This document shows positions 33,001 through 42,000 of a DNA stretch of 64,000 nt, in pieces. The stretch lies in assembly GCF_013167455.1 (NCBI RefSeq), contig NZ_CP038330.1; one strand, 5' to 3'. Origin of the DNA: Escherichia coli O157:H7. Lineage in GTDB: Bacteria > Pseudomonadota > Gammaproteobacteria > Enterobacterales > Enterobacteriaceae. The position numbers are program-made. How positions within the stretch are numbered: position 1 is the first letter of the stretch; every line of letters begins with the position of its first letter.

Positions 33001-36000
33001 ACCCGGCATGACTGCGGCTTGGGAGCAGGAGCTTGAGAAAGTTGCCTCCGGCTCCGGGAACATGTCTGTCTTCATGAAGCAGATTTCCACCTGGATCTGC
33101 CAAATGGTTGAGCAGCTCAAAGTGGCCGCACCGGTTCTGACCAAAGAAGGTGGCGCGATGGCTAAAGCCTTCGAGGGCGCGAAGCCTCCTTCACACGAAT
33201 GCTTCAACTGCGGTGGAGAGATGCACCGGATCAAAGGGAAGAACGGTTTTTTCTGGGGCTGCCAGAACGAGGCTTGCAAGAAGACGTTCCCAGACAACCG
33301 AGGGAAACCCGAGAAACGTATCGCGGCGGAGGATTGTCCAGACTGCCCAGATTGCGGTAGCCCGATGCGTCTCAGGAAAGGAAAAGCCCCTGGCAAGAAA
33401 CGAGCCTCTAAGTTCTGGGGCTGCACAGCGTATCCCGATTGCAAAGGCACTATGCCCTTCAAAAAGTCGGACTTTATGGATTGATAGAGGAATTAAGTAT
33501 GTTTGGAAAAATCATTTTAACTGCGATGCTCACAACCAGCTCTGCCACTGCCGAAGATGCCGGGAAGAACATCGCCTCAGGCTTGGCAACTGCATCTACC
33601 CGCCAAATAGGTCAGGCCATCATGCCAACTCTAGCTATCGGCTCGGCCATTGCAAAAAGCGCAGGAAAAGGCATGGTGTTAGGTTTCGCTGAGACATCTG
33701 CCAGCTATATTTCCCACGATGACCTGAGCGCCACTCGAAGCTATCAAAACCCTGAGGCTGTTGATATGGCAAAAGGCCTGGGGACCTTGAAAGACGTCCC
33801 TGATTTCCTCTACGTCATTACAGACGTAAATGCCAACATGGCTGACAAATGCAAGCGCGTCTGGGAGCCTCAATCACTGGCTTTAAGCCAATTGATTGTT
33901 GAGCTGGTGGCACTGCGTAAGACGAACAACAAAGGTAGCTACGAACAAGCGCTATCCCACCTCGATTGTTCAATATTCACAAACTAAAACAATTAAGGGG
34001 CCGTCGGCCCCTTATCTTTAATTACCCAAGTTCTTTTGATACCTGAGCTACAATAGTTTTAAATCAGAATACCAAAATCAATTCACATGGATGGCGAATA
34101 CTTCAACCGGATAATCTCCAAAGTGCGGGTGCGTTATGACGTTCCTTGAGAAGCCACGCCAAGGACGAATCTCTATCCTGGACATATCTCCAGCCTTTGG
34201 GTAGCCACACTTAACATGGACTTCATCATACTCGCGCCCCTCTAGTCTTTTTATCCAGTAGTCTGTGACGAGGCGATATTCATCTGGTTTTTCTCCAGAT
34301 TTGATCTGATCGAAGTAAATCTTTTTTACGGGCAGATGAAGTATTCTCTTTTTCATAATCACCACCTGATAGCTCATCAGACTATCTAACTATTAGACAA
34401 AACATCCCTTTTTCAATTTCTGTCTCTCTCGCCTCATGGGCCAATACAATATCCGCGATAACACGAATATTCCCTTCATAGTTGCGAATGGCCGCATCCC
34501 GCATCGTGTCTAAAGTGTCCTGACACTTCGCTCGCCTGAATTTAACGAGCCAACTTTGCCGATCTATCTTGTCCACACCAAATCCCATTCAGCGAACCAT
34601 GTATCCAGCTTCTTTTGCCGCAGCATCAAGCTCGGAGGAAAAGTTAACGTCGGACTTTTCTGCCGCGTTATAGAGGGCTCCACACTTGGGCCATGAGCGC
34701 CCTACCAGTTTCATCGCCAACGCATCCGCCAGCATTTCTCGGATCTGTGTTTCAGCCTCACCAAAATCGGCTAGAGTTTCGTCTATGCCCGACTCTTCCA
34801 TCAGCTCGATGAGCTGAGGTTGTTTGAGCCAGACGCCTGTTTGCATTTCCAACTGGTCTCTTGCATCTGCCACCAATTGGCGTTCAAGGGTGACGCCATT
34901 TACGGTCTTAACAAATTGCTTTGGCTGACGCTTTACCTTTTTTGGTCTGGACACATCAGAGATAACCGTCACCGGCTTCCCACGCAGTTCACGCGGCAAC
35001 GGTCCACTTAGCCCCAGAACTAAGCGACGAGCGTACTCATGCTCGTATGGTTTCAACCCTCGACCTTCACGGTACATCTCAGTATCCACCAGCAGATCAC
35101 CGCGCAGCCTCGCGTTTTTCCGCACTTGTTCGGACAAGACCGATTTGCCCTTCCCGCTGGCTCCCATTACGAGCGAGTGAGATTCTACTTTGTTATCAAA
35201 AAACATAATTCCGCCCCCAAAGAGGTGTTGCTATAAAACATGGTTTGAACATCTGGCGCTGTTATTGCGCCCACCGATACTCTGGGCAACGCACTCTGTT
35301 GTGGCCGCTTTTCCCTTTGCTATTGGTGATGTCATCTTCATTCTTCGCAGCCCCCAGCTTACTCAGTATTTCAGCTTTTGTGGCGCGATGACCGCGTATT
35401 AAAAGAGCATTCAGCAGGTATCCAGTGAACACCTCTGTACTCGGCATACGGTCAAGCAACTCAACATACTGCTCATCCGTCAAATCATGGATCTCACAAT
35501 ATTTTTCCACCGCCTTTTCGTAGGCTTCTGCGTAGCCATGAGTGGAAATCCTGAAAACAATATCCCCATTGCCGTAGCCTGGCTTTGTGACGAGAAAACA
35601 AGGTGCGAAGTAGGTTCTCTTCACCCCCATCCGGCTCCGGTTCTCGATACTGATATAAGCCCTCAGCCCCTCAGCAATGATATTTGGCCCGGAGTTGCGT
35701 CGCCGCTTACAAGTCTTATTCTGACGCTTCACCTCTTCTGCCTCAGCTTCCCACTTTCGGTCCAAGCTGTAGGCCAGCCGGTGAGCTGTTGCGTAGGAAT
35801 ACTCTCTCAAGGAGAAGTATTCCTGCCGGTAATCATCCGCCACCCCAACTGTTCGTGCGACACGGAACCCGACGAAACCGGCGTCATGGGTTCCCTCGCC
35901 GTAGTAAATGACTGCCATTATTTACCTTCCTTACTTCTGATACCGTGCTGCACCACGGTATGGCGACCGCAATTCACATTCAGGTGATCCCGAACTGCGG

Positions 36001-39000: not shown

Positions 39001-42000
39001 CATACGTAGGCGATTGAATGCTTTAGCGTCATCCCAGTTCAAAGGATTTTCATCCATGAGGAAAAAAGGCGCTTCGTCCCGAACGAACACCTTGGACTTG
39101 GCGTTATCGAAGATCGGCCCAAACACCCCCTGCTGGAGGTATGGTTCGACTTTCTCTGCAAGATCCTGGTGCCCTTGAGAACGCAGCGCCTCATAGAGCT
39201 GGGTGATTGTTTGTTTGCCGGTGTCCGGAAGGCAGGACAATACTGTCTGCTTTTCCTCGTCACTCAGGCTTACCATTCTGGACAAAAAGCTGACTACCAG
39301 CTCGTTGTGCCCATCGACCGTTTCAATGTTGAGCTTGTTCTCGTCCATCTTCTTCCTCAGTAATCGGTTCGATAAATTCAATGGAGTCCATGCTTACATG
39401 ACTGATAATGGCTTTCAGGCCGCAGCAGTCGCATGGTTCAAAGGTCAGTTCTGATCCCTTGGGAGACTGATGCGTGACCGTTGCCACAGCCCCTAGAGGG
39501 ATCAACCCCCAGCCGTTTTTTAGTACCCGAGTAGTTCTGACCAGCCGACCTTTGTACTCTCGTTTCAGTTTCGGATGCGGCACTACCGCATATCGCTTAC
39601 TCATTTCGGTCCCCTTGTACCAAAGGCTCGACAACCAGCTCTTGAGCTTCGTCCCAGTCGGACACCTTTGCATCACCAAACGCAAAGGCAATTCGCATAG
39701 CCACTGTCGGCCTGCCTATTTTCATCAAGTAAGCCGCAGCACCGGCACACATCGACTCTTGTCCCGAAGGTGCATAGTTACCCTCTTCATCCCATTCACC
39801 ACCTGACTTTGAGTGCACGGTCTTGTGGCAATGAAACGTCGTCATGTCGTTTTCAACGATGTCGTTGATGATGCCTTCTAATCGCCCAGGGGCCAGCTCG
39901 ATAGCGCCCTCCTTCCGGAATGGACAGTTGGCGCAAGGTTTCTTCAAACGGAGATGATTTGCTTGCTTTGGCATACATATCACTTTTACAGCATCATTTT
40001 ATGATTCTATGATATAGCCATATTCCGTGTAGTCAATATCTCACTAACAATTACTTTCTATCGGACGCTTACGCGCCCATTTTGGGCAGATAGACAAGTT
40101 ATTTGGGCGTTTGGGCGTTTGGAGTGTGCGAGGTGGACAGCGGGGAGACTTTCACATGTGAAAGTTTTGTTTCTTGGTATCGTTTTATTGTCTCTTGATA
40201 TTATTTTATGATGCTGTAATAATCATAAATAAGGGCCGCATCGCTCTTCGACCTTCGTTGCAGCCCTTACAACACAATCAAGCAATTAAGGAGCTTTGTT
40301 ATGCTGCAAGGCAATACTAACACGAATAAGCGCATCCCGCTCGCGGCGTTCATGAAATGGCCGCTGGCGAAACGTCAGGACTTCATCGACCGGGAAATGT
40401 CCGGTTGCCCCGACTTTATCAAGACGTCTTTGCTTCGGCATTAAGGCGATCAGGCAGGAAAGCAAAGAACCTCGCTTCGGCGGGGTTCTTCGTTTCTACC
40501 TCTTGAATGTTTCGTCAGAACAAACTGGAGCGCTTATGTCACCAGAAACACAGCAACTTACATCCAAGGCTTTATCTCTCATCGAGCAGTCCCGATACAG
40601 AATGGGCACATCTCGGTTTGTTGAGGCCTTTATTGACCAGTGGGCATACTTGCAGACTGGCCTATACCCAGCCAAGGAGGAGATCCCGGAAGAACTTCAG
40701 CCGGTCGCCTTCGAGCTCTCTCACGTCCTGTCTGCCGCCATTAAGCGCGACCCCACCAGCGATGTTTTGGGTTACGTCCTAAGCATGTCTGGCTTCCACA
40801 AGAAGGGCACCAATTACTTCCCCACTCCTCCAGAGATTGGCCGCTTGATGTCACTCATTGTTGGCTCACAGTCTTCGGCAGACTTTTATGAGCCCTGCTG
40901 TGGTTCTGGCATCAACGCCATTCACTGGATGGAAAACCTGATCGAGAACCACGGTCCCGAAGCATTGAGAGAAGCCTCAATCTACCTGGAAGACATCGAT
41001 CCGTTGATGGTGAAGTGCTGCATGATCCAGCTATTCCATTATTTCGAGTCCCGCAATACCACTCCCAAAACGCTGAGTATCGTCGGCATAGACACCCTTA
41101 GCAGACGAACCAAGAACATCGCCTACTACGCCGAAAAACCTCCAGCAACCGCCGCTACCGTGGCAGCATAAAAAAACCCGCCGATTGGCGGGTTTTGCAT
41201 TCAATGCGCTGCTCTATGGCACCTTACAGTTTTCCGTACCGGTTCAAGAACGAAGACCTGTCTAAGATCCCCCAGTCTGTCAGCATGTAGTAGCCGGTGG
41301 CACCTCGTTCGCCGGTAGACTCCCTGACGAACAAGATATTCATTCCGAACTCATCACGCAGGGCAGACAACTGTCTCTTGATCGTTGATTCAGGAATATT
41401 TGTTGCCTTGTGAAGGTCTTGGAGACTTGGCTTCTCCGTTTTAGACAGGGCATTCACCAAAGCAAATTTTCTTTTCATGTCCTGTGAGATCTTCATATTC
41501 ACCTGTTCTTGACAGGCCCAACCTCTCTGGCTGGGCCTCCTTTATTAGCCTTCGACACTCAGGAGTTCAATGTCTGACACAGGCACATGAACATGCTTTT
41601 CCTTGCCTTCGCCATCGAGCGTTTTAACCCAGACAGTAGACGGAACCAGAGCAACACGGTCGGTCATGATGACTCCACGTTTGGTCTCGCCATCCAGGTT
41701 AACGTTGACAGCAAAAATCAAACTGTCAGCCCGGACGTTCTTCCATTCCTTGTCCTTCGGCAGAGGAGGAAGAGCATCACCGCCTTCTTCATCTTTGTCC
41801 TTGCCGCTGTTATCTGGCTGCTTGACAGGATCTTTGTGCTCACCCTCTTCATCACGCAAAGGGTCTTCGTCATCATCGTCCTGACCATTGGAATTTTTAC
41901 CCCCTTCCAGTTCCTCCTGGGCAAGGTTCAGGTCGTCATTCCCGGTTTGTTCCGACGTACCATCCCCACCCGAGTTGAGGGATTGCTCGTCGGTGTTGCC

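What the first reader, a model, noticed from the sequence alone, without database searches (positions are those of the whole stretch)
34078..40108. Eleven-gene operon with a Dcm-like methyltransferase, apparently wired into the transfer regulon: candidate establishment or anti-defence module
A single minus-strand operon runs from about 39974 to 34078 with tight or overlapping gene junctions. It encodes a Cys/His-rich protein, a CxxCxGxG zinc-finger protein, several proteins with no recognisable motif, a cytosine-5 MTase-like protein, a P-loop NTPase and an ASCH/PUA-like protein. Its promoter region carries all three repeated motif classes (M2 at 39988, M3 at 40094, M1 at 40147). The M3 box is the same palindrome found upstream of traL and traI, so the operon is probably switched on together with conjugation. 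An orphan methyltransferase plus unknown partners expressed on transfer is the pattern expected for restriction evasion or establishment in a new host, but most of these proteins are unassigned.
Basis: partly seen in the sequence, partly recalled or inferred. Interest (0 to 1): 0.75.

Follow-up and report, generated by a model that had tools for sequence, protein, structure and literature searches.

The report
Known IncC plasmid dcm2 accessory operon
This is the well-conserved "vcrx036–vcrx055 / dcm2" backbone operon of IncC (IncA/C2) multidrug-resistance plasmids. Its link to the transfer activator AcaCD and its orphan cytosine methyltransferase were already published, and ten of its eleven proteins still have no known function.

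Summary
Eleven minus-strand ORFs (39974–34078) are tightly packed, all under purifying selection, and end at a strong terminator. The window is an IncC plasmid backbone, and the operon is 100% identical in hundreds of plasmids. It corresponds to vcrx036–vcrx043 plus vcrx053–055 of pVCR94.

All three promoter motifs are real:
- M3 is the AcaCD box (ChIP-exo peak, TSS and RNA-seq published in 2014).
- M1 is the IncC parS/ParB site (published in 2024).
- M2 is the conserved spacer of a sigma-70-like promoter module. Both local copies point away from the operon.

The methyltransferase is Dcm2, a divergent C5-MTase. It keeps the catalytic Cys, ENV and RxR, has an unusual "CDD" motif IV, and carries a conserved N-terminal domain of about 130 aa.

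The "P-loop NTPase" and "ASCH" calls could not be confirmed by profile or fold searches.

Outside IncA/IncC the genes occur singly, so the operon is a mosaic rather than one machine.

Published tests argue against an essential anti-restriction role. TnSeq found none of the dcm genes necessary. The EcoRII-protecting dcm is a different gene. lacZ fusions found the promoter constitutive.

Verdict: already known and of modest interest. The function remains an open, testable question.

The parts
39597..39974 (-). g1 = vcrx036 (R55_55), 125 aa. A Cys/His-rich protein of a widespread plasmid-borne family with a probable Zn site (C14, C17, C49/H50, C76).
   Evidence: for the ORF. There are 286 homologues at 57-80% identity across Proteobacteria, and those residues are invariant. 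AF2 mean pLDDT is 87.6. No PDB fold match was found. It matches phrog_5443 at 2.9e-23.
39323..39604 (-). g2 = vcrx037, 93 aa, unknown function. It overlaps g1 by 8 nt.
   Evidence: No family hit in any library. Only a diverged C-terminal remnant is present in IncA.
38674..39348 (-). g3 = vcrx038, 224 aa, unknown function. The PGAP name 'thymidylate kinase' is unsupported.
   Evidence: for the annotation. No Pfam, NCBIfam, PHROG, PADLOC or PDB hit. dN/dS is 0.20 against IncA.
38175..38681 (-). g4 = vcrx039, 168 aa. It has an N-terminal DnaJ-type CxxCxGxG zinc finger and an unknown C-terminal domain.
   Evidence: Pfam PF00684 at i-E 0.02. NCBIfam DnaJ at 0.003.
37858..38169 (-). g5 = vcrx040, 103 aa with a GTG start (110 aa from the ATG at 38190), unknown function.
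   Evidence: No family hits. dN/dS is 0.12.
37349..37849 (-). g6 = vcrx041, 166 aa, unknown function. The C-terminal part is rich in charged residues (Glu, Lys, Gln).
   Evidence: phrog_18599 at 1.5e-30. A 33%-identical homologue sits next to ssb in an IncT plasmid. It is absent from one IncA plasmid.
35918..37345 (-). g7 = dcm2 (vcrx042), 475 aa. An orphan, divergent C5 cytosine methyltransferase with a conserved N-terminal domain of about 130 aa.
   Evidence: PF00145. The family profile matches M.HhaI at E = 3.8e-16, with C228 aligned to the catalytic C81, E272 to ENV and R313/R315 to RxR. Motif IV reads (G/S/Q)CDD instead of PCQ. It is named dcm2 in Wang 2019 and Roy 2020.
35262..35918 (-). 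g8, 218 aa, unknown function. It is truncated to vcrx043 in pVCR94.
   Evidence: No hit in any library. It is absent from IncA plasmids.
35207..35261 (.). The 55-bp g8/g9 gap, which is the variable point of the operon.
   Evidence: Type-2 IncC plasmids carry about 450 extra bp here, including a 219-nt gene. pVCR94 carries an insertion of about 4.4 kb (vcrx044-049) after the truncated g8.
34589..35206 (-). g9 = vcrx053, 205 aa, DUF8308 family. It has an invariant Walker-A-like GxxGxGKS motif and an acidic C-terminal half. NTPase fold not confirmed.
34382..34588 (-). g10, 68 aa, unknown function. It is under-annotated as vcrx054 in pVCR94.
   Evidence: dN/dS is 0.04 against IncA.
34078..34377 (-). 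g11 = vcrx055, 92-99 aa. A conserved small protein that PGAP names 'ASCH domain-containing'. The likelier start is the ATG at 34356.
   Evidence: 589 homologues at about 60% identity. phrog_625 at 2.3e-31. No Pfam hit. The only profile hit in PDB is 1XNE at E = 0.79.
33994..34014 (.). A bidirectional intrinsic terminator shared with the convergent vcrx056 gene.
   Evidence: a 9-bp stem with 6 GC pairs and T-runs on both strands.
40028..40030 (-). Published AcaCD-dependent transcription start of vcrx036, mapped from pVCR94 positions 20445-20447.
   Evidence: Table S3 of Carraro 2014. Coordinates were mapped through the vcrx036 start codon.
40065..40093 (-). It is also scored on the other strand for vcrx035.
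40149..40164 (.).
   Evidence: In Kiss-lab NAR 2024, the 'R55_55' site is one of 14 parS sites, and three other parS sites of the set were bound by ParB in EMSA.
39985..40013 (+). A sigma-70-like promoter module, TTTACA-17-TATGAT, whose spacer holds M2 (ATCATTTTATGAT, 39993-40005). It is antisense to the operon leader.
   Evidence: PparA has the same architecture.
40195..40223 (+). A second M2-containing promoter module, TTGATA-17-AATAAT with an extended -10. It points to vcrx035/vcrx034.

Best explanation
What it is. This is the conserved backbone accessory operon of IncA/IncC conjugative plasmids, equivalent to pVCR94 vcrx036-vcrx043 plus vcrx053-055 and starting at R55_55.

How it is built. 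It is a mosaic string of small, independently acquired but individually selected genes. This is the kind of array that large MOBH plasmids and phage-plasmids carry. It is not one multi-subunit machine.

How it is expressed. Transcription starts about 55 nt upstream of g1. The promoter's -35 region is replaced by an AcaCD box (class II activation). The master transfer activator therefore boosts at least the first five genes. There is also AcaCD-independent basal expression. A ParB-binding parS site sits 56 bp upstream, and two divergent sigma-70-like promoters overlap the region, which gives scope for further control.

What it does (inferred). The only assignable activity is Dcm2, an orphan and divergent C5 cytosine methyltransferase with an extra N-terminal domain. 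The most likely role of Dcm2 is protective m5C methylation of the plasmid, and incidentally of the host DNA, at a still-unknown site. Methylation would occur in the donor and in fresh transconjugants, blunting some Type II restriction. This role would be redundant with the other methyltransferases and with the vcrx089-093 evasion operon. The other ten proteins are candidate establishment or host-interaction factors of unknown mechanism.

Inferred: methyltransferase activity, its protective role, and any role of the other proteins.
For: Identity with the IncC backbone:
- 1068 plasmid records match, 598 of them at 99% or more. Typing is IncC / MOBH / MPF_F.
- 934 records hold at least 80% of the operon, against 971 records that hold traI.

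Gene reality and operon structure: junctions, terminator, and dN/dS of 0.04-0.30.

Regulation:
- ChIP-exo peak, motif, TSS, and vcrx036 rising from 0 to 320.
- parS next to the AcaCD box.
- Boxes of the same class at vcrx068, traL and traI.

Mosaic nature:
- A concatenated tblastn shows that outside IncA/IncC the genes occur singly. g1 is in IncHI1B/FIB and Pseudomonas plasmids. g11 is in megaplasmids and phage-plasmids. g6 is in an IncT plasmid. dcm2 stands alone in Aeromonas and Vibrio plasmids.
- IncA plasmids lack g8, most of g2, and sometimes g6 or g10-11.
- There is an indel hotspot between g8 and g9.

Dcm2 as an orphan methyltransferase:
- Catalytic Cys, ENV and RxR are conserved across 33 family members at 25-50% identity.
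- No nuclease or defence family was found in the operon.
- Distant homologues also sit in arrays of small ORFs with no recognisable family and no recognisable endonuclease partner.
- Orphan methyltransferases are a recognised plasmid anti-restriction strategy.
Against: - TnSeq of pVCR94 transfer into restricting V. cholerae O395 did not flag any dcm gene as essential.
- The strong EcoRII protection in pKAZ3 maps to another dcm gene.
- The bisulfite study assigned no motif to Dcm2, and the single dcm2 deletion had no reported phenotype.
- dcm2 is not significantly AcaCD-induced, and g9-g11 are AcaCD-independent in pVCR94.
- The promoter behaved as constitutive in lacZ fusions.
- Motif IV lacks the canonical Pro-Cys-Gln, and motifs I-III did not align to M.HhaI, so activity is unproven.
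- oriT is about 20 kb away and the direction of transfer is unknown, so this is not demonstrably a leading-region module.
Confidence: 0.55

Rival explanations
1. The eleven genes form one coherent multi-protein system built around Dcm2. This could be a DNA-modification or hypermodification pathway, or a methylation-associated defence system (MADS-like, R-M-like) that protects the plasmid's host from phages or rival plasmids.
For: - Gene packing is tight, with a single promoter and terminator.
- g9 gives a weak PADLOC hit to mad8 at 1.2e-4.
- g11 may be an ASCH/PUA-like reader domain, according to its PGAP name.
- Wang 2019 proposed a plasmid-borne 'RM barrier'.
Against: - The genes do not co-occur outside IncA/IncC.
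- IncA plasmids drop g2, g6, g8 or g10-11 individually.
- No nuclease, helicase or other effector family was detected.
- The only recurring adjacency is ASCH-g1, seen once in pND6-1.
- pVCR94 tolerates a split operon.
Confidence: 0.07
2. The operon serves plasmid maintenance or partition-linked control, not entry into new hosts. ParB bound at the adjacent parS, together with the promoter module shared with PparA, would tie its expression to the partition system. Its products (for example Dcm2 methylation) would tune plasmid gene expression, copy number or stability.
For: - parS lies 56 bp from the AcaCD box, and the Kiss lab suggests ParB cross-talk at exactly this promoter.
- The M2 promoter module is shared with PparA.
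- Wang 2019 saw plasmid loss during construction of some dcm deletions.
- The promoter is constitutive in reporters.
Against: - No plasmid loss was seen for the dcm2 single deletion, and the triple dcm deletion was stable on passage.
- ARI-B-associated deletions remove part of the operon in otherwise viable plasmids (hits H53 and H54).
- Both M2 modules point away from the operon.
Confidence: 0.12
3. The genes are largely dispensable hitch-hiking cargo. They are kept because they sit between essential backbone blocks (parAB-053 and traI), not because they give the plasmid a benefit.
For: - They are dispensable for conjugation in laboratory assays.
- IS insertions inside the operon are tolerated (ISVsa5, ISKpn18, IS1B).
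- Gene content is variable.
Against: - Every gene is under purifying selection (dN/dS 0.04-0.30), including the 68-aa ORF.
- About 934 of roughly 1000 IncA/C records keep at least 80% of the operon.
- The g1 and g11 families stay about 60% identical across distant Proteobacteria.
Confidence: 0.1

Closest known systems
vcrx036-vcrx044 operon of IncC plasmid pVCR94 (AcaCD regulon; Carraro et al. 2014, PLoS Genet, PMC4207636). Called R55_55 onwards in pR55.
   Same: It is the same locus. Gene lengths match (378, 282, 675, 507, 312, 501 and 1428 nt). The AcaCD box and TSS are in the same positions, and the flanks match (vcrx035/034 on one side, vcrx056-059 and traI on the other).
   Different: In this window (a type-1 IncC backbone) the operon is uninterrupted. 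g8 is full length and g9-g11 follow directly. In pVCR94, g8 is truncated and about 4.4 kb is inserted. Type-2 plasmids carry an extra 219-nt gene in the g8/g9 gap.
Orphan DNA methyltransferases of conjugative plasmids. Examples are the IncC dcm at about 81 kb in pKAZ3 that protects from EcoRII, and the leading-region MTases described by Samuel et al. 2024.
   Same: It is a plasmid-borne MTase with no cognate endonuclease, embedded in an array of small ORFs with no assigned function and co-regulated with transfer.
   Different: No target site or protective phenotype has been shown for Dcm2. It is not demonstrably in the leading region. It has motif IV (G/S/Q)CDD and an extra N-terminal domain.
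M.HhaI-type C5 cytosine methyltransferases (PF00145).
   Same: The catalytic Cys, ENV glutamate, RxR and GxSV motifs align. The family profile matches M.HhaI at E = 3.8e-16.
   Different: Single-sequence similarity is low: TIGR00675 scores 38 bits against a cut-off of 100.65, and only 421 relatives were found among 1.84 billion representatives. Pro-Cys-Gln is replaced by x-Cys-Asp-Asp. Motifs I-III did not align. There is an N-terminal extension of about 130 aa with invariant S28, N30, R71, Y73 and E84.
hde operon (vcrx087-093) of IncC plasmids and SXT/R391 elements.
   Same: It is on the same plasmid, is bound by AcaCD, and is a multi-gene operon acting on entry into a new host.
   Different: hde has demonstrated anti-restriction and anti-CRISPR phenotypes and recognisable domains (AAA_5/CbbQ_C, SSB, RecT, YqaJ). 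The present operon has neither.

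Membership tests
AcaCD regulon of IncA/C plasmids | An AcaCD-binding motif immediately upstream of the -10/TSS, at a class II activator position | tested here: met
   The core GCCCATTTTGGGC lies at 40075-40087. The published 29-bp motif (p = 5.3e-10) maps to 40065-40093 and the TSS to 40028-40030. 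Boxes of the same class occur at vcrx068, traL and traI.
AcaCD regulon of IncA/C plasmids | AcaCD-dependent transcription | not testable with these tools
   The literature is split. RNA-seq shows vcrx036-040 strongly AcaCD-dependent, dcm2 not significantly so, and g9-g11 independent. The single-copy lacZ fusion was constitutive.
C5 cytosine DNA methyltransferase (PF00145) | Motif IV catalytic cysteine (Pro-Cys) | tested here: inconclusive
   C228 is invariant in 33 family members and aligns to M.HhaI C81. The preceding Pro is replaced by G, S or Q, and the following residues are an invariant or near-invariant Asp-Asp.
C5 cytosine DNA methyltransferase (PF00145) | Motif VI ENV, motif VIII RxR and motif X GxSV | tested here: met
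   E272, R313 and R315 are invariant. IGQSVD aligns to FGNSVV of M.HhaI.
C5 cytosine DNA methyltransferase (PF00145) | AdoMet-binding motif I (FxGxGG) and motifs II-III | tested here: inconclusive
   A conserved 'FVAxSSGVD' (G146 invariant) sits where motif I is expected. The profile alignment to M.HhaI starts only at motif IV.
C5 cytosine DNA methyltransferase (PF00145) | Methylation activity and a defined target sequence | not testable with these tools
   The bisulfite study of pVC211 assigned no motif to Dcm2.
Restriction-modification system | A cognate endonuclease next to the methyltransferase | tested here: not met
   No nuclease or R-M family appears in any of the other ten proteins by Pfam, NCBIfam, PADLOC or PHROGs.
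P-loop NTPase (g9) | Walker A motif GxxxxGK[ST] | tested here: met
   GASGKGKS is present, with G20, K21 and S22 invariant and G15 and G18 conserved in at least 90% of 17 homologues.
P-loop NTPase (g9) | Walker B motif and the alpha/beta NTPase core fold | tested here: inconclusive
ASCH / PUA-like domain (g11) | A significant match to the ASCH profile or to an ASCH structure | tested here: inconclusive
   No Pfam hit at E of 10 or below and no NCBIfam hit. A 30-sequence profile searched against PDB finds only 1XNE at E = 0.79. I recall 1XNE as an ASCH-type protein, but I did not verify that here. The match covers the N-terminal 'LxLKxEYFxxIKSGxKxxExR' stretch. The PGAP name is 'ASCH domain-containing protein'.
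DnaJ-type zinc finger (g4) | CxxCxGxG repeats | tested here: met
   CRLCAGSG and CGMCQGHG are present. Pfam PF00684 matches at i-E 0.02 and TIGR02349 at 0.003. These are weak, but the motif is explicit.
IncC parS (ParB-binding centromere-like site) | 14-bp core TTTCACATGTGAAA with AAAC/GTTT-type flanks | tested here: met
   The exact core is at 40150-40163 with GTTT on the right flank. It is listed as the 'R55_55' site. ParB binding was shown by EMSA for three other parS sites (upstream of parA, near R55_174/eexC, and SGI1 DR2).
Plasmid leading-region anti-defence island | Location within the first genes to enter the recipient from oriT, on the transferred strand | tested here: inconclusive
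   oriT is next to mobI at position 139-323 of pR55, about 20 kb of backbone away. The nic site and the direction of transfer are undetermined.
Anti-restriction / host-defence-evasion function | Loss of transfer into restricting recipients on mutation | not testable with these tools
   Published TnSeq found no dcm gene essential. The pKAZ3 dcm knockout with a phenotype is a different gene.

The most novel reading that the evidence does not exclude
One or more of the strongly conserved orphan families in this operon may be a new kind of plasmid establishment or anti-defence factor. There are three candidates:
- Vcrx036 (g1) is a protein of about 118 aa with invariant Cys, Cys, Cys-His and Cys residues. 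Its confidently predicted fold has no PDB relative. It stays 57-80% identical across plasmids of Gamma- and Betaproteobacteria, which suggests it acts on a conserved host target.
- The small g11 protein.
- The Dcm2 clade, with its x-Cys-Asp-Asp motif IV and its own N-terminal domain, might modify DNA in a way that differs from ordinary m5C methylation, in substrate state, site or chemistry.
Probability: 0.12. Interest if true: 0.6.

Novelty: already known. Interest (0 to 1): 0.27.

Why it matters
IncC plasmids are among the main vehicles of carbapenemase and multidrug resistance, and their broad host range is only partly explained. This operon is kept almost intact in about 93% of sequenced IncA/C plasmids and is under purifying selection. 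It is bound by the master transfer activator, yet none of its products has a demonstrated function.

Finding what Dcm2 methylates could explain part of the plasmids' resilience in new hosts. So could finding what the very conserved Vcrx036 and g11 families do, and those two families would also gain a function in many unrelated plasmids. As it stands, the finding adds nothing that the IncC literature has not already described.

Tried and rejected
1. Family assignment of the ten non-MTase proteins. Searches with Pfam (concatenated queries), NCBIfam, PHROGs, PADLOC and PDB sequences gave only function-less PHROGs, a weak DnaJ zinc-finger hit, weak DUF8308, weak mad8 and weak JetC coiled-coil hits.
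2. The PGAP names 'thymidylate kinase' (g3) and 'phage head-tail adapter' (g9) found no support in these searches, and I rejected them.
4. The structure of g9 gave a mediocre model with no meaningful fold match, so 'P-loop NTPase' could not be upheld beyond the Walker A motif.
5. ASCH membership of g11 was tested with a family profile against PDB and was not significant.
6. Conserved synteny outside IncA/IncC was sought with a concatenated 1944-aa tblastn and by inspecting eight distant loci. The only recurrence was one ASCH-g1 adjacency in pND6-1.
7. I checked whether the published pKAZ3 dcm knockout was this gene. It is not: the primers are absent from the window and the knockout lies at 80-82 kb.
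8. Two TraDIS papers by Hancock et al. (2017 and 2020) are not in the held library, so their gene-essentiality calls for this operon could not be checked.
9. Leading-region status could not be settled, because the nic site and transfer direction are unpublished.

Full report
IDENTITY OF THE REGION
The 6.2-kb stretch 34000-40200 matches 1068 records of the plasmid collection. Of these, 598 match at 99% identity or more, and many are 100% identical over the full length. Nearly all are conjugative plasmids of Klebsiella, Salmonella, Escherichia, Citrobacter, Providencia and Vibrio. A representative record is typed IncC / MOBH / MPF_F. It shows the same neighbours as the window: the MobH relaxase traI, two small ORFs, topoisomerase III and a 162-aa ORF converging on the operon. 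Beyond the promoter lie a 47-aa ORF, an N6-methylase, the HTH '053' gene, parB and parA. The window is therefore an IncC (IncA/C2) backbone.

THE OBSERVATION
Eleven minus-strand ORFs run from 39974 to 34078. Their junctions are -8, -26, -8, +5, +8, +3, -1, +55, 0 and +4 nt. A 9-bp GC-rich hairpin with T-runs on both strands lies at 33994-34014, between the last stop codon and the convergent gene. I compared the ORFs with a type-2 IncC plasmid and two IncA plasmids. Every ORF that has an orthologue shows dN/dS of 0.04-0.30, including the 68-aa g10 (0.04). All eleven are therefore genuine coding genes. The operon as described is real.

WHAT IS ALREADY PUBLISHED

Locus names. Gene lengths and flanks identify the locus as vcrx036-vcrx043 plus vcrx053-055 of the prototype pVCR94.

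AcaCD binding and induction. Carraro et al. 2014 mapped an AcaCD ChIP-exo peak between vcrx035 and vcrx036. They found a 29-bp AcaCD motif (p = 5.3e-10) and a 5'-RACE start 35-37 nt downstream of it. vcrx036 expression rose from 0 to 320 when AcaCD was supplied, and Rockhopper predicted an operon vcrx036-vcrx044. Mapped through the vcrx036 start codon, the motif is window 40065-40093 and the TSS is 40028-40030. Its core GCCCATTTTGGGC recurs exactly upstream of vcrx068, and with two mismatches upstream of traL and traI.

parS. It is the IncC parS site. The Kiss laboratory listed the copy 'near R55_55' among 14 parS sites. They showed ParB binding by EMSA for three other parS sites of the set. 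They also pointed out that parS sits next to the AcaCD box at exactly this promoter.

The methyltransferase. It is the gene called dcm2 (vcrx042) by Wang et al. 2019 and Roy et al. 2020.

HOW FIRM IS THE LINK TO TRANSFER?
The link is less firm than the motif suggests. Three results qualify it:
- In the 2014 RNA-seq, vcrx036-040 depend clearly on AcaCD. dcm2 changes only from 31 to 113 (q = 0.29).
- In pVCR94, where an insertion separates them from the promoter, g9-g11 (vcrx053-055) are expressed without AcaCD.
- Durand et al. 2021 fused all 23 AcaCD-bound promoters to lacZ in single copy. They reported that Pvcrx035 and Pvcrx036 were constitutively active.

A sigma-70-like TTGACT-16-TATCAT lies on the operon strand just downstream of the mapped TSS. 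However, the number of such matches in the region equals the chance expectation.

THE M2 MOTIF
M2 is a real repeat. ATCATTTTATGAT with at most one mismatch occurs five times against 0.10 expected. At the parA promoter it fills the 17-nt spacer of TTGCAG-17-TACAAT, directly upstream of parS. The two copies near the operon have the same architecture: TTTACA-17-TATGAT at 39985-40013 and TTGATA-17-AATAAT at 40195-40223. Both are on the + strand, so they point towards vcrx035/vcrx034 and away from the operon. The first copy overlaps the operon's 5' leader in antisense. I did not find this module described in the papers I read, and I record it as a side observation.

THE PROTEINS

Dcm2 (475 aa):
- It is PF00145-positive.
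- An exhaustive search found only 421 relatives among 1.84 billion representatives. About 95 of them match at E of 1e-30 or below, and many of these share its full-length architecture.
- A profile of 33 members matches M.HhaI at E = 3.8e-16. C228 aligns with the catalytic Cys81, E272 with the ENV glutamate, R313/R315 with RxR, and IGQSVD with motif X.
- The canonical Pro-Cys-Gln is replaced by (G/S/Q)-Cys-Asp-Asp.
- The first 130 residues or so form a conserved domain with no Pfam match (invariant S28, N30, R71, Y73, E84).
- No endonuclease or defence family accompanies it, so it is an orphan methyltransferase.

g1 (Vcrx036):
- It has 286 homologues that stay 57-80% identical across Pseudomonas, Achromobacter, Paraburkholderia, Marinobacterium and enterobacterial plasmids.
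- C14, C17, C49, H50 and C76 are invariant.

g11:
- It belongs to a family of about 92 aa that is about 60% identical across 589 clusters, and NCBI names it 'ASCH domain-containing'.
- Pfam gives no hit. A family profile reaches only 1XNE at E = 0.79. I recall 1XNE as an ASCH-type protein but did not verify that here.

g9:
- It has an invariant Walker-A-like GKS in a small family (DUF8308, 21 clusters).
- Its model (mean pLDDT 73.7) has no P-loop fold match.

g4 has two explicit CxxCxGxG repeats.

g2, g3, g5, g6, g8 and g10 matched nothing informative.

ONE MACHINE OR A MOSAIC?
I ran a tblastn with all eleven proteins concatenated. Full or near-full coverage appears only in IncC and IncA plasmids. 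Elsewhere the genes turn up one at a time:
- g1 occurs in IncHI1B/FIB Klebsiella plasmids and Pseudomonas plasmids.
- g11 occurs in Pseudomonas megaplasmids and phage-plasmids.
- g6 sits beside ssb in an IncT plasmid.
- dcm2 stands alone in an Aeromonas (65% identity) and a Vibrio (36%) megaplasmid.

In each case the homologues sit among long runs of small ORFs with no assigned function.

IncA plasmids lack g8, keep only a remnant of g2, and in one case lack g6 and g10-11. The 55-bp g8/g9 gap is where type-2 IncC plasmids carry an extra 219-nt gene and where pVCR94 carries 4.4 kb of extra DNA. The only recurring adjacency was ASCH-g1 in pND6-1, seen once. The operon is therefore best read as a mosaic of independently useful genes.

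FUNCTION

Support for the anti-restriction or establishment idea:
- Orphan methyltransferases are a recognised plasmid strategy.
- The operon is retained. About 934 records hold at least 80% of it, against 971 records that hold traI.

Published tests that do not support an essential role:
- The pKAZ3 dcm knockout that becomes 2700-fold more sensitive to EcoRII lies at 80.4-82.4 kb. Its primers are absent from this window, so it is a different gene.
- The knockout of the adjacent N6-methylase ('dam1', window 40537-41171) had no protective effect.
- The dcm2 single deletion had no reported phenotype, and bisulfite data gave no Dcm2 motif.
- oriT is about 20 kb away beside mobI, and the polarity of transfer is unknown, so leading-region status cannot be claimed.

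VERDICT
The sequence observation is correct and well above chance. The regulatory inference is correct in essence but was published in 2014 and qualified in 2021. The identities of M1 and of the methyltransferase are also published. The anti-defence interpretation remains an untested hypothesis, with some negative evidence against an essential role.

Three things are new here, all of them minor:
- The mosaic nature of the operon.
- The unusual motif IV and N-terminal domain of the Dcm2 clade.
- The high conservation and apparently novel fold of Vcrx036, together with the promoter-spacer nature and orientation of M2.

Novelty: already known. Interest: low to moderate.

Noticed in passing
window 3751-3763 (-), 15034-15046 (-), 39993-40005 (+), 40200-40212 (+), 43589-43601 (-): The 13-bp palindrome-like element ATCATTTTATGAT occurs 5 times against 0.10 expected. 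It always lies in the 17-nt spacer of a sigma-70-like promoter. At the parA promoter and at 15034 it sits directly upstream of a parS site. It looks like a shared promoter/operator module of maintenance-type genes. I did not find it described in the papers I read.
   Followed up: partly
window 39597-39974 (-): Vcrx036 belongs to a family that stays 57-80% identical across plasmids of very different Proteobacteria. It has an invariant set of Cys, Cys, Cys-His and Cys residues. Its confident AlphaFold model has no PDB fold relative. No Pfam family covers it.
   Followed up: yes
window 35918-37345 (-), residues 225-232: The whole Dcm2 clade replaces the canonical C5-MTase motif IV Pro-Cys-Gln with (G/S/Q)-Cys-Asp-Asp. 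It also carries a conserved N-terminal domain of about 130 aa. By eye this resembles an AbrB-like swapped hairpin ('RKVRVSSNFLDVMGFKPGMGIAV'), which I did not test.
   Followed up: partly
window 35207-35261; L019 1703-2219; pVCR94 24557-30197: The single 55-bp intergenic gap of the operon is a recurrent insertion point. Type-2 IncC plasmids have about 450 extra bp here with a 72-aa ORF. pVCR94 has a truncated g8 followed by several kb of extra genes.
   Followed up: partly
L012 6459-7823 (IncA plasmid NZ_CP069519.1): In this IncA plasmid the last 40 codons or so of dcm2 are replaced by unrelated sequence, which removes motif X. The enzyme is probably inactive there. g8 is absent from both IncA plasmids examined.
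   Followed up: partly
window 40301-40444 (+) and 40537-41171 (+): Divergent from the operon are the 47-aa vcrx035 ORF and an N6-adenine methylase (vcrx034, called 'dam1' in pKAZ3). Two methyltransferase genes therefore flank one regulatory hub made of an AcaCD box, a parS site and two M2 promoters. Published RNA-seq found vcrx034/035 silent, whereas a lacZ fusion found Pvcrx035 constitutive.
   Followed up: partly
L015 6007-6645 (pND6-1, IncP-7-like Pseudomonas plasmid): Homologues of the last gene (g11, 50% identity) and the first gene (g1, 73% identity) of the operon are directly adjacent, followed by a DUF4942 protein. This is the only hint of a functional pairing within the operon, and it was seen once.
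   Followed up: partly
window 38674-39348 and 34589-35206: Some GenBank/PGAP records name g3 'thymidylate kinase' and g9 'phage head-tail adapter protein'. No profile or fold search run here supports either name.
   Followed up: yes
window 4541, 5620, 9204, 9663, 14987, 22730, 40149, 43564: The window holds eight copies of the IncC parS core. The copies at 5620, 22730 and 40149 each lie within about 60 bp of an AcaCD-type box (5656, 22668, 40075). This fits the ParB/AcaCD cross-talk proposed in the literature.
   Followed up: partly
window about 46000-62000: GC content jumps from about 0.50 to about 0.60-0.63. This is consistent with a resistance island (the sul2/ARI-B region in related plasmids) inserted beyond the parAB block.
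   Followed up: no
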